Of a stretch of DNA of 64,000 nucleotides, positions 27,001 to 30,000 are shown piece by piece. The stretch is from assembly GCF_056712565.1 (NCBI RefSeq), contig NZ_CM160072.1; one strand, given 5' to 3'. Each line of letters begins with the position of its first letter. Position 1 is the stretch's first letter. The position numbers are program-made.

Positions 27001-30000
27001 CAACCAGATGAACTTCGGTATGGTTGACTTGTTCTGCCAGTTCGATCGTCTCTTTGACCAGTTTTTCATTGAGCGCATTATGGTACGGCTCTTCACTGGC
27101 GAGATTCACCGCCACCAGCGCCTTACCCCCTTCCGGCCACGGCTGGTCTTTCACCATCCACACCGGGCTTGGGCATTTGCGTAACAGATGCCAGTCCGTT
27201 GGCGTAAAAATCACCGCTTCCAGACGGTCATGTTGGTGCGCCATTTTTAGCACCAAATCGTGCCCGCCGCTGATCACTTCCTGAATGATGGCTTCGAAAG
27301 GACGGTTATGCCAGACCACTTTAATTTCAATGGGAACGCCAGCATTGAGATAATATTTTGCCTGCTCGTGGATCCAGGCTGTACGCTGGCTGATGACGCC
27401 CTGACGCATAGCGGTACGTTCGTCCGGAGAGAGCAGGGTGGTCATTTCGTATGAGAAGTCATAGATCGGCAAAAAGGCTTTAATTTTGCCACCAATCCGT
27501 TGATGTAAATAAACAGCTCGCCGCAATGCTGGTTGGTCGTCCTGGTTAGGATCGATAACAACGAGCATGTTCTGATACATAGCCATACAGGGTCTCCTTA
27601 CAACAACTGTCAACGCAGTTTGTAATTAAAAGATTAACCCATATCTGGTGAATGAAACAGTGATGAACCTTCTGTCAGATCAATAAATCAGAAAAATTTA
27701 ATGATATGACAGAAGGATAGTGAGTTATGCGGAAGAATCAGGCAACGTTACGCGTATGACCAGCAAGCTGGGCCAGCGCATCGTTATTTTCGATAGTGAT
27801 GTATTTACCTTTGACTGCCAGCATACCGCTTTTCTGGAAGCGACCCAGCAGACGGCTGATGGTTTCAACCGTCAGGCCCAGATAGTTACCGATATCACCA
27901 CGAGTCATCGTCAGGCGGAATTCACGAGGGGAGAAGCCGCGTTGGGCAAAACGACGGGACAGGTTGTAGATGAATGCAGCCAGACGTTCCTCGGCATTTT
28001 TCTTCGACAACAGCAGGATCATGTCCTGATCGCCTTTGATTTCACCGCTCATCAGACGCATCATCTGCTGACGCAGATTCGGCATTTTACCAGACAAATC
28101 GTCCAGCGTTTCGAACGGGATTTCACATACCATCGAGGTTTCCAGCGCCTGCGCGAAACTCGGGTGATGACCGCTGCCGATGGCATCAAATCCCACCAGA
28201 TCGCCTGCTAAATGGAAACCAGTGATTTGCTCGTCGCCTTGCTCAGTGATGGTATAACTTTTAATCGTACCGGAGCGGATGGCATAAAGCGATTTTAGTT
28301 CATCTCCAGCCTTAAACAGCGTCTGGCCTTTCTGAATAGGCTTCTTCCGCTCAATGATATTATCAAGCTGATCAAGCTCATGTTCGTTGAGTGTGAACGG
28401 GATGCAAAGCTGGCTGATGCTGCAATCCTGGCAATGGATAGCACAACCGCCAGACTGAATGCGCCGTATAATTCGCTTTTCCGGGATCATAGGTCTGCTC
28501 AAGCCGTAATTGATATTTGTCAATTTTAACATCTTTTTAGGGAGCAAGTAAGTCTAAGCAAACCTTAACAGCAGAGAATTCCGATATTAGATGTAAATAT
28601 ATGTCTATCTATTTGAAAACCCTTAAGTTGTTAAGGGTGACTTTACATAAAAGTGTGAACAAGCTGGCACAAATTGTTTAATGTTTACAGCAAAAGATAA
28701 CCTTCGTGGCGCAATAACCACTCTTTTCGCTGAACTCCGCCTGCATATCCGGTCATGGTGCCGTTTCGGCCAATAACCCGATGGCAAGGTACGACGATGC
28801 TGATGGGATTCGATCCGTTTGCCGCACCAACGGCACGCGCCGCGCCAGGGCGGCCTAATTGTTCAGCCAGTTGGCCATAATGCATTACCTGCCCGCAGGG
28901 GATAGTGCGCAGTGTTTTCCAGACTTCGCGCTGAAATGGCGTCCCCCCCGTGGCAGTGGGAAGCGTATCAATAATGCTAAGATTACCGGCAAAATATTCA
29001 CGAAGCTTGTCGCTTAAACCACCTGGGTTGGTGGCAGAAATGCGCTCATAGCCTTCTTTGCGATAATGGATGTCCAGCAGCTGCACCATGCGTTCGCTGT
29101 ACTCTTCCCATTCAACCGCCCGCAGGCGAAATTGCTCATCGCAAATCACCCACAGTGGACCCAGTGGCGTGGCAATTTTTTCTTCAAGTAATCTCAGCAT
29201 CCGTTCTCTCTTAAGACAAACGTGGGTAAATACCCGGACCTATCGGCAAGCCAACAAGATACCACGCCAGCAACATCAGCAGCCATACCACCAAAAAGAT
29301 TAATACTAACAAAAAGTAAGTACCAGGTTTCGCGTCTGGTTTGTCGCAGTATTTAAGCATAAAGCGATTTTTTGATTTTTCTGCCTGAAGAAATGAGGGC
29401 AAGCCATCACATGGATCGAGGGTGGGATAATTCCAGTCAGCGAAATTTTACCGTAGGCTATCTGTTATTTGATTCTGTGGCGTGATAGCCGCCAGACACC
29501 ACTGATCTCGTCACTCATTCCCCAATCCCGGCGAGAATGTGGTTATTTACAGAGCTAAAAAATGAATAAAAAAATAGAGCCTGTCGACATCCGCCAGACT
29601 CTACAGTACACACAGCAGTGCATCCTCGTCTTAAATCCGGCCTGGGGTCCTGGTGACCGGTGACAGTGTTATAACGGTTTTACCCATCCGTTGCCAATTT
29701 TCTTCAGTGACAGATTTCACGAAAATATAAGTTAAATCATTTGCCTTGTGATTGCATAATCATGCATCGTTAATCGACGAGTAAATTTACCGGGCGAGTA
29801 GCCCGTTCGACGCTTAAACATATTGCCGAACGATTCAGCTGAGGCATAGCCCAGACGATGGGCAATTTTGGTCAACGAATATCCATCATCAAGAAGCGTC
29901 ACTGCAGAAATAACGTGCATTTGCTGAACCCAGTGGCGAAATGTTAATCCCGTCTCTTTAACAAATAAGCGCATGAGTGTACGGCTACTGACGTTAATTT

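What the first reader, a model, noticed from the sequence alone, without database searches (positions are those of the whole stretch)
27668..27715. Perfect 10-bp inverted repeat with 28-nt AT-rich loop between fnr 3' end and uspE promoter
ccttctgtca … tgacagaagg flank an AT-rich loop (gatcaataaatcagaaaaatttaatgatat). The position suits either the fnr terminator (unusually long loop) or a dimeric-regulator operator in the uspE promoter region.
Basis: seen in the sequence. Interest (0 to 1): 0.2.

Follow-up and report, generated by a model that had tools for sequence, protein, structure and literature searches.

The report
fnr 3' hairpin overlapping uspE promoter
The inverted repeat is a real, evolutionarily maintained RNA hairpin just after the fnr gene, and its downstream half also serves as a conserved upstream piece of the neighbouring uspE promoter; this is an ordinary space-saving arrangement, not a new kind of element.

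Summary
The repeat is real, but it was under-described. It is a 21-bp stem (19/21 pairs) with a 7-nt loop at 27668-27716, on the minus strand that encodes fnr and uspE. It is not a 10-bp stem with a 28-nt loop.

It is single-copy and unannotated in about 5,400 E. coli genomes. All 48 distinct compact fnr-uspE spacers from Enterobacteriaceae fold into it. Thirteen of 21 pairs show compensatory changes. Non-Watson-Crick pairs are G·U on the fnr-sense strand 59 times, against 7 A·C. This points to an RNA structure in the fnr 3' UTR.

In about 20 species, foreign genes separate fnr from uspE. There, fnr keeps either a full hairpin whose sequence has drifted or a canonical terminator. uspE keeps only the loop plus 3'-arm sequence (yTGATTTATTGATCTGGCA), usually without a matching partner arm. 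This block lies about 75 to 45 nt upstream of the published uspE transcription start.

Best reading: a terminator-like or 3'-end-protecting hairpin for fnr, whose 3' arm doubles as a uspE upstream promoter element. It lacks a U-tract, so it is not a canonical intrinsic terminator. A palindromic operator is not supported. Interest is low.

The parts
27696..27716 (-). 5' arm of the hairpin (RNA sense: CCUUCUGUCAUAUCAUUAAAU), starting 21 nt after the fnr stop codon. It lies at -93..-73 relative to the uspE TSS.
   Evidence: The sequence varies between genera but stays complementary. It is absent from the uspE-proximal copy in most insertion loci.
27689..27695 (-). 7-nt loop (UUUUCUG), at -72..-66 of the uspE promoter.
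   Evidence: The U-rich loop sequence is conserved and stays with uspE in insertion loci.
27668..27688 (-). 3' arm (AUUUAUUGAUCUGACAGAAGG), at -65..-45 of the uspE promoter. The core ATTTATTGATCTGRCA is nearly invariant.
   Evidence: Searches show the information content. One search shows 15-17/17 identity next to uspE even where most loci have no partner arm.
27672..27698 (-). Conserved uspE-linked upstream block (AWATTTTYCnTGATTTATTGATCTGRCA). It is inferred to be an upstream promoter element; the binding partner is unknown.
   Evidence: in 20 insertion-bearing loci, conservation starts at the loop and runs through the 3' arm. Everything 5' of the loop is unrelated.
27641..27667 (-). Pyrimidine-rich tail after the hairpin (UUCAUCACUGUUUCAUUCACCAGAUAU). 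It is not a U-tract, and it contains the uspE -35 region.
   Evidence: the mean is 3.3 U in the first 8 nt, and C:G is about 2:1 over 40 nt; no terminator-like site was found.
27653..27660 (-). Invariant CTGTTTCA, the published -35 region of the uspE sigma-70 promoter.
   Evidence: Invariant in 50/50 compact spacers. The -35 assignment comes from the PMC2760140 supplement.
27631..27636 (-). uspE -10 hexamer TAATCT. The pattern TAnnnT is kept in all genera.
   Evidence: the published -10 lies within GTTAATCT; alignment.
27623..27625 (-). uspE transcription start, 37 nt (454 sequencing) or 39 nt (5' RACE) upstream of the ATG.
   Evidence: PMC2760140 supplementary file 3. I converted the positions to window coordinates from the ATG at 27586.
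27738..27740 (-). fnr stop codon (TGA).

Best explanation
The inverted repeat encodes an RNA hairpin in the 3' untranslated region of fnr: a 21-bp stem with a 7-nt loop, on the minus strand. It most likely marks and protects the 3' end of fnr mRNA. It would do this either as a weak, non-canonical terminator or as the exonuclease-blocking stem-loop of a transcript terminated just downstream. In doing so it limits read-through into the uspE promoter, which starts immediately after it.

The spacer is only 151 bp, so the DNA of the loop and 3' arm (-75..-45 relative to the uspE start) is also a conserved upstream element of the uspE sigma-70 promoter. That element is probably a site for an activator or the RNA polymerase alpha subunit. 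The 3' arm is therefore fixed by the promoter, and the 5' arm evolves to stay complementary to it.

Shown here: the structure is under selection on the sense strand; the 3' arm is conserved independently of pairing; and fnr always has some hairpin or terminator at this position. Inferred: the actual termination or stabilisation activity, and what binds the 3'-arm DNA.
For: 1. All 48 distinct compact spacers fold into the hairpin, at -19.6 to -30.5 kcal/mol.
2. On a MAFFT alignment of 37 species, 83.7% of cells are paired, against 28-49% when the partners are slid. Thirteen of 21 pairs have changes on both sides, and 0/500 shuffles reach the observed score. RNAalifold independently finds the outer 8 bp, 7 of them with compensatory changes.
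3. Within a register chosen on Watson-Crick matches only, non-WC pairs are G·U on the fnr-sense strand 59 times and A·C 7 times. This is what an RNA on that strand predicts. A DNA palindrome would not give this asymmetry.
4. Natural experiment. In 8 loci with foreign DNA between the genes, the fnr-proximal copy keeps a -16 to -25 kcal/mol hairpin while its core drifts (TTGATC becomes ACGATC, TCGATT, TTGGTC or ATGGTT) with compensating changes. In 12 further loci, fnr is instead followed directly by a GC-rich stem plus T-run terminator. One of these (L045) has a stem GCCAGATTG/CAATCTGGC plus TTTTTT, which looks derived from the repeat. Next to uspE, the loop plus 3'-arm block is 15-17/17 conserved, and a complementary 5' arm is missing in most loci.
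5. The published uspE start (-37/-39) and -35/-10 boxes put the 3' arm at -65..-45.
6. Stable stem-loops without U-tracts, followed by C>G sequence, are the documented 3' ends of Rho-dependent E. coli transcripts (PMC6061677). Here the 40-nt tail has C:G of about 2:1.
Against: No experimental 3' end is known at the hairpin. The curated Term-seq list and the Rho-region list of PMC7815308 have nothing in the fnr-uspE spacer. That dataset also misses uspE's own canonical terminator, so it is uninformative for this locus.

There is no U-tract: 3 U in the first 8 nt in E. coli, and an A-run in Enterobacter. Efficient intrinsic termination is therefore unlikely, and read-through into uspE may be substantial.

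The pyrimidine-rich tail is also promoter sequence, so its C>G bias is not specific evidence for a rut site. No protein that binds the 3'-arm block was identified. Sequence counts are not phylogenetically independent.
Confidence: 0.62

Rival explanations
1. It is a palindromic operator. A dimeric transcription factor binds both arms as DNA half-sites and regulates the uspE promoter.
For: The repeat lies at -93..-45 of the mapped uspE promoter. The 3' arm is strongly conserved. An FNR ChIP-chip signal was once reported at ydaA (= uspE), although the authors' predicted site lies inside the fnr coding region, not in the repeat (PMC1802558).
Against: The 5' arm is not conserved in sequence; it covaries. 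In about 20 loci, uspE keeps the 3' arm, and most of these have no matching 5' arm. Mismatches are strand-asymmetric (59 G·U against 7 A·C), which breaks DNA symmetry. Half-site centres about 28 bp apart are atypical for a single dimer. No known motif fitted by eye: I compared FNR, CRP, Fur, Lrp and the sigma-54 and sigma-32 promoter consensus from memory, not with a tool.
Confidence: 0.06
2. It is an efficient, ordinary Rho-independent terminator of fnr and nothing more.
For: It is a stable stem-loop placed 21 nt after the stop codon. Canonical terminators occupy the same position in species that lack it. In L014, the separated copy is followed by TTTTTCATCATTT.
Against: There is no U-tract in E. 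coli or in most genera, and the consensus scan finds no terminator here. This reading does not explain why the 3' arm is far more conserved than the 5' arm, or why the 3' arm stays with uspE, mostly without a partner.
Confidence: 0.15
3. The hairpin acts within fnr-uspE read-through transcripts. It could be a processing or regulatory structure, for example an RNase III or RNase E entry site or a protein-binding stem. It would then set how much uspE is made from the fnr promoter, rather than ending the fnr mRNA.
For: The lack of a U-tract makes read-through plausible. A long, nearly perfect 21-bp duplex is a possible RNase III substrate (inference). No separate fnr 3' end has been reported.
Against: When the genes are separated, the hairpin stays with fnr in most loci. 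A canonical terminator can substitute for it, which argues for a 3'-end function. uspE has its own mapped promoter downstream of the hairpin.
Confidence: 0.1
4. It is a DNA-level recombination or insertion target: an att-like site or cruciform that attracts foreign genes into the fnr-uspE spacer.
For: At least 20 of 70 species carry unrelated inserted genes exactly here. In 7 of them, part of the repeat is duplicated on both sides of the insert.
Against: The inserts carry no integrase or transposase, and the junctions and duplicated lengths differ between lineages. The flanking duplications are equally expected if only insertions that preserve both the fnr hairpin and the uspE block survive. 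The G·U asymmetry argues for an RNA role.
Confidence: 0.05

Closest known systems
Rho-independent (intrinsic) transcription terminators of Enterobacteriaceae
   Same: It is a stable RNA stem-loop a few nucleotides after a stop codon, with a 7-nt loop and G/C pairs at the base of the stem. It is positionally interchangeable with canonical terminators in related species.
   Different: It has no U-tract. The stem is unusually long (21 bp) and A/U-rich in its upper half. The terminator consensus scan does not detect it.
Protective 3' stem-loops at the ends of Rho-dependent E. coli transcripts (Dar & Sorek 2018, PMC6061677)
   Same: It is an energetically stable stem-loop that is not followed by a U-rich sequence, and the downstream sequence has more C than G.
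   Different: No mapped 3' end or bicyclomycin sensitivity is on record for this locus. The downstream C-rich tract is only about 40 nt and is itself the uspE promoter.
Upstream promoter elements: UP element or class I activator sites of sigma-70 promoters
   Same: The loop plus 3' arm is an A/T-rich, highly conserved block at -75..-45 of a mapped sigma-70 promoter. It is conserved whether or not a hairpin can form.
   Different: The A/T-rich part lies further upstream (-76..-55) than the canonical UP element (-59..-38; from established knowledge). No binding factor is known or identified here.
REP/BIME, ERIC and other repeated extragenic palindromes
   Same: It is an imperfect palindrome in an intergenic region downstream of a gene.
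   Different: It is single-copy, with a median of 1 place per genome in 5,399 E. coli genomes. It has no Rfam family. It is locus-specific and orthologously conserved.

Membership tests
Canonical intrinsic terminator | Stable stem-loop with G/C-rich base and a short loop (3-8 nt) | tested here: met
   The stem is 21 bp (19 pairs) with a 7-nt loop and about -25 kcal/mol. The basal 10 bp are perfect, with 5 G-C pairs.
Canonical intrinsic terminator | U-tract (about 5 or more U within 8 nt) immediately after the stem | tested here: not met
   The tail is UUCAUCAC, with 3 of 8 U. The mean across 48 species is 3.3. The scan found 0 terminator-like sites in 27300-28000.
Canonical intrinsic terminator | RNA 3' ends mapping at the U-tract in vivo or in vitro | tested here: inconclusive
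   There is no entry for this spacer in the Term-seq tables of PMC7815308. The same tables also lack uspE's canonical terminator. Other datasets were not held or had no entry.
Protective stem-loop of a Rho-dependent terminus | Stable stem-loop without a U-rich tail, with C>G downstream | tested here: met
   C:G is 9.1:4.5 in the 40-nt tail. The criteria come from PMC6061677.
Protective stem-loop of a Rho-dependent terminus | Read-through increases when Rho is inhibited (bicyclomycin) | tested here: inconclusive
   The PMC7815308 supplement lists no Rho-termination region at 1398400-1398899 or 1399500-1399799 (K-12 coordinates recalled from memory). Sensitivity at this weakly expressed locus is unknown.
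Palindromic operator of a dimeric regulator | Both half-sites conserved in sequence and kept together with the regulated promoter | tested here: not met
   The 5' arm has low information content. It is replaced by unrelated DNA upstream of uspE in most of the roughly 20 insertion loci.
Palindromic operator of a dimeric regulator | Departures from symmetry show no strand bias | tested here: not met
   There are 59 G·U against 7 A·C on the sense strand.
Upstream promoter element of uspE (UP-like or activator site) | Sequence conserved at a fixed distance upstream of a mapped promoter, independent of neighbouring functions | tested here: met
   The core matches 15-17 of 17 positions about 98 nt upstream of the ATG in all insertion loci. 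The start site and the -35/-10 boxes come from PMC2760140.
Upstream promoter element of uspE (UP-like or activator site) | Binding of the alpha C-terminal domain or an activator, and an effect on transcription | not testable with these tools
   This needs footprinting or promoter deletion assays.
Repeated extragenic palindromes (REP/ERIC) | Many copies per genome | tested here: not met
   There is one place per genome in 5,399 E. coli genomes, and no Rfam match.

The most novel reading that the evidence does not exclude
The overlap is functional rather than merely compact. The same 21 bases act as RNA (closing the fnr hairpin) and as DNA (an activator or alpha-subunit site for uspE). Transcription coming from fnr, or conditional formation of the hairpin, would then tune uspE expression. 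This would couple a universal stress protein to the expression of the oxygen-sensing regulator. The spacer also behaves as a recurrent landing site for foreign genes, and selection to keep both functions would shape which insertions survive.
Probability: 0.15. Interest if true: 0.4.

Novelty: new member of a known kind. Interest (0 to 1): 0.2.

Why it matters
The practical value is modest. It gives the unannotated 151-bp fnr-uspE spacer a concrete anatomy: the fnr 3' hairpin, the uspE upstream block, and the -35, -10 and start site. Anyone deleting fnr or building uspE reporters should know that the last 50 bp 'of fnr's terminator' are also part of the uspE promoter region. The split loci are a clean natural example of how one sequence can be held by two constraints, RNA pairing and DNA recognition, and how these separate once the genes are pulled apart. 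It does not open a new class of element.

Tried and rejected
- **Rfam:** the permissive scan of 27300-28100 gave only chance-level hits to eukaryotic miRNA/snoRNA models.
- **Consensus scans:** the promoter/terminator scan of the spacer found nothing.
- **Repeat family:** the 10-mer is not repeated in the window beyond 1-mismatch noise. The spacer is single-copy in E. coli.
- **Experimental fnr 3' ends:** the PMC7815308 supplements have nothing at this locus. PMC6061677 and PMC9023263 have no supplements held. PMC12207403 and PMC6131387 have no fnr or uspE entry. PMC4288677 is not held.
- **Text searches:** searches for 'fnr terminator', 'fnr-uspE' and the 1982 fnr sequence paper found nothing usable.
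- **uspE regulators:** searches through ChIP-exo/SELEX papers found no paper naming uspE.
- **Motif comparison:** I compared the conserved block by eye with consensus sites recalled from memory: FNR, CRP, Fur, Lrp, Fis, IHF, ArcA, NarL, PhoB, PhoP, OmpR, Cra, CpxR, LexA, and the sigma-54, sigma-32 and sigma-E promoters. Only a TTGAT half-site (FNR-like) and, in E. coli only, a 13/15 Lrp-like match over the loop were seen. Neither is convincing, and none was tested with a tool.
- **Chance:** rejected for the 21-bp form, although the 10-bp core alone would not be significant.

Full report
**Context.** The window is E. coli chromosome. RefSeq annotation of identical DNA gives ynaI, ynaJ, uspE (window 26636-27586, minus strand), fnr (27738-28490, minus) and ogt. 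The finding lies in the 151-bp spacer between the fnr stop codon (27740-27738) and the uspE start codon (27586). Both genes are read on the minus strand, so fnr transcription runs into the repeat and then into the uspE promoter.

**The observation.** The perfect 10-bp arms exist at 27668-27677 and 27707-27716. The end coordinate is one base short in the finding, and the spacer is 29 nt rather than 28. The important correction is that the 'AT-rich loop' is largely self-complementary. The repeat is really 21-nt arms (27668-27688 and 27696-27716), 19 of 21 complementary, around 7 nt.

As RNA of the minus strand it folds to about -25 kcal/mol, with z = -4.3 against dinucleotide shuffles. The plus strand folds similarly, as any palindrome would. 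A perfect 10-bp repeat with a loop up to 40 nt is not unusual: 8 occur in the window against 2.3 expected. The 21-bp form is unique in the window and never arose in 300 simulated windows.

The element is single-copy and unannotated in 5,399 of 5,426 complete E. coli genomes. It matches no Rfam family.

**Comparative evidence for a structure.** A scan of one genome per species with the UspE protein returned 80 enterobacterial loci. Seventy of these contain both genes in the same order. In 49 of them the spacer is compact, at 134-154 bp. All 48 distinct compact spacers fold into the same hairpin, at -19.6 to -30.5 kcal/mol, although the 5' arm and the outer stem differ between genera. Examples are TGTCA/TGACA, TGCCA/TGGCA, GGCCAGATC/GATCTGGCC and CCTTTGCCGGATC/GATCCGGCAAGGG.

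On a plain MAFFT alignment of 37 species, RNAalifold recovers the outer 8 pairs, 7 of them with compensatory double changes. Counting the full 21-pair helix gives these results:
- 83.7% of cells are paired, against 28-49% when partners are slid by 1-3 columns.
- 13 pairs have changes on both sides, against 4-7 in the slid controls.
- None of 500 column shuffles reaches the observed covariation.

**Which strand.** I chose the helix register in each species on Watson-Crick matches only. I then classified the remaining positions inside the helix. There are 59 G·U on the fnr/uspE-sense strand, 7 A·C (which would be G·U on the opposite strand) and 27 others. From the base composition of the 5' arm, neutral transitions would give roughly 10:6, not 59:7. 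These counts are not phylogenetically independent, but the direction is clear. The pairing is maintained in an RNA read in the fnr direction, not in double-stranded DNA symmetry and not in an antisense RNA.

**A natural dissection.** In 21 of the 70 loci the spacer is expanded, to 0.2-2.1 kb. In 20 of them the extra DNA separates fnr from the uspE upstream block; in L077 it lies downstream of the promoter region. The inserts are unrelated between lineages: an HNH endonuclease, an APH-family phosphotransferase, an EAL/CSS protein, a GGDEF/dCache protein, a YmgB-like protein, and small membrane or unknown ORFs. They therefore represent several independent events. Two regularities hold.

First, uspE always keeps the block AWATTTTYCnTGATTTATTGATCTGRCA, that is the loop plus the 3' arm, at the same distance from its ATG. 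The core matches 15-17 of 17 positions. The DNA 5' of the loop is unrelated in most loci, so no comparable hairpin can form there. L042 is an exception and still shows some pairing.

Second, fnr is always followed by a hairpin, and there are two cases:
- In 8 loci (L008, L012, L014, L015, L020, L021, L029, L042) it is a complete copy of the repeat. Its 3'-arm sequence has drifted (TTGATC becomes ACGATC, TCGATT, TTGGTC or ATGGTT), with matching changes in the 5' arm. In L014 it is followed by TTTTTCATCATTT.
- In 12 loci (L016, L038, L044, L045, L061-L063, L065-L067, L076, L080) it is a canonical GC-rich stem with a T-run, placed directly after the stop codon. In at least seven of these the inserted gene is co-directional or no inserted ORF is evident, so the terminator serves fnr. 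The L045 terminator (GCCAGATTG...CAATCTGGC TTTTTT) looks like a shortened derivative of the repeat.

When the two genes are pulled apart, the copy next to fnr keeps the structure and loses the sequence. The copy next to uspE keeps the sequence and usually loses the structure.

**Relation to the uspE promoter.** A published genome-wide start-site study maps the uspE start 37 nt (pyrosequencing) or 39 nt (5' RACE) upstream of the ATG. It assigns a sigma-70 -10 within GTTAATCT and a -35 within CTGTTTCAT (PMC2760140, supplementary file 3). In window coordinates the features are:

| Feature | Window coordinates | Position relative to the uspE start |
|---|---|---|
| Transcription start | 27623-27625 | +1 |
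| -10 hexamer TAATCT | 27636-27631 | -13..-8 |
| CTGTTTCA (-35 region) | 27660-27653 | -37..-30 |
| Hairpin 3' arm | 27688-27668 | -65..-45 |
| Hairpin loop | 27695-27689 | -72..-66 |
| Hairpin 5' arm | 27716-27696 | -93..-73 |

CTGTTTCA is invariant in all spacers, and the -10 keeps the pattern TAnnnT. The conserved block therefore sits where upstream promoter elements and class I activator sites lie. I could not identify what binds it. An older FNR ChIP-chip study lists ydaA (= uspE) as a target. Its predicted site is inside the fnr coding region (window about 27785-27808), not in the repeat, and a later ChIP-seq paper does not mention uspE (PMC1802558; PMC3688515).

**Is it a terminator?** It fails the defining U-tract test. 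The tail is UUCAUCAC in E. coli, the mean is 3.3 U in the first 8 nt across species, and Enterobacter has an A-run. The consensus scan finds no terminator in the spacer, although it does find uspE's own canonical terminator at 26615-26596.

It does fit the description of the stem-loops at the steady-state 3' ends of Rho-dependent E. coli transcripts. These are stable, lack a U-tract, and have C over G downstream (PMC6061677). Here C:G is about 2:1 in the 40-nt tail.

Direct evidence is lacking. The Term-seq and Rho-region tables of PMC7815308 have no entry for the spacer. They also have none for uspE's canonical terminator, so the absence says little. I therefore call it a terminator-like or 3'-end-protecting hairpin and leave the mode of termination open.

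**Verdict.**
- **Reality of the repeat:** it is real and under selection.
- **Best explanation:** an fnr 3'-UTR RNA hairpin whose 3' arm is simultaneously a conserved upstream element of the uspE promoter.
the terminator option is right in spirit. The palindromic-operator option is not supported, though half of the palindrome is promoter-associated.
- **Novelty:** it is a previously unannotated member of well-known kinds of element in a very well-studied genome.
- **Interest:** low. The split loci provide a tidy illustration of dual constraint.

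Noticed in passing
Loci L008, L012, L014-L016, L020, L021, L029, L038, L042, L044, L045, L061-L063, L065-L067, L076, L080 (spacer between fnr and uspE): The fnr-uspE spacer is a recurrent landing place for unrelated foreign genes across Enterobacteriaceae. 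The inserts include an HNH endonuclease, an APH phosphotransferase, an EAL+CSS protein, a GGDEF+dCache protein, a YmgB/AriR-like protein and small ORFs. In 7 loci, part of the hairpin region is duplicated on both sides of the insert. No integrase or transposase was seen in the inserts.
   Followed up: partly
L002 (E. coli strain c1-17, NZ_AP040898.1), equivalent to window ~27639-27676: One E. coli strain out of about 5,400 has a 38-bp deletion. It removes the outer part of the 3' arm, the tail and the uspE -35 region (GACAGAAGG...ATATGG). Both the hairpin and the uspE promoter are probably disabled in that strain.
   Followed up: partly
window 27785-27808 (inside the 3' end of the fnr coding region): The sequence tattttcgatAgtgatgtatttac matches, with one difference, the FNR site predicted by Grainger et al. 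for their ChIP-chip peak at ydaA (= uspE). It lies within fnr itself, about 50 bp before the stop codon. A 13-nt direct repeat, GATAGTGAGTTAT / GATAGTGATGTAT (27716-27728 and 27792-27804, 11/13), links it to the sequence next to the hairpin; this is probably chance.
   Followed up: no
window 26596-26615 (minus strand): A canonical intrinsic terminator, AGGCCCGAGTTATCGGGCCT followed by ATTTTTTACT, lies after uspE in the 49-bp gap facing the convergent ynaJ gene. It probably serves both genes. It is absent from the curated Term-seq list of PMC7815308, which shows that dataset's limited sensitivity at this locus.
   Followed up: partly
K-12 coordinate 1397980 (+ strand), antisense to uspE; roughly window 26940-26950 by offset from the uspE ATG, not verified: The PMC7815308 supplement lists a Rho-termination region antisense within uspE, and another antisense within ynaI. 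This suggests Rho-suppressed antisense transcription across this gene.
   Followed up: no
window 27606-27611 (minus strand TTGACA) with TATGGC overlapping the uspE start codon: A perfect TTGACA hexamer lies 18-19 nt upstream of tgTATGGCT, a sequence that overlaps the uspE ATG. This is a promoter-like pair inside the uspE 5' UTR. GACAG is conserved across genera, but the promoter scan did not report the pair.
   Followed up: no
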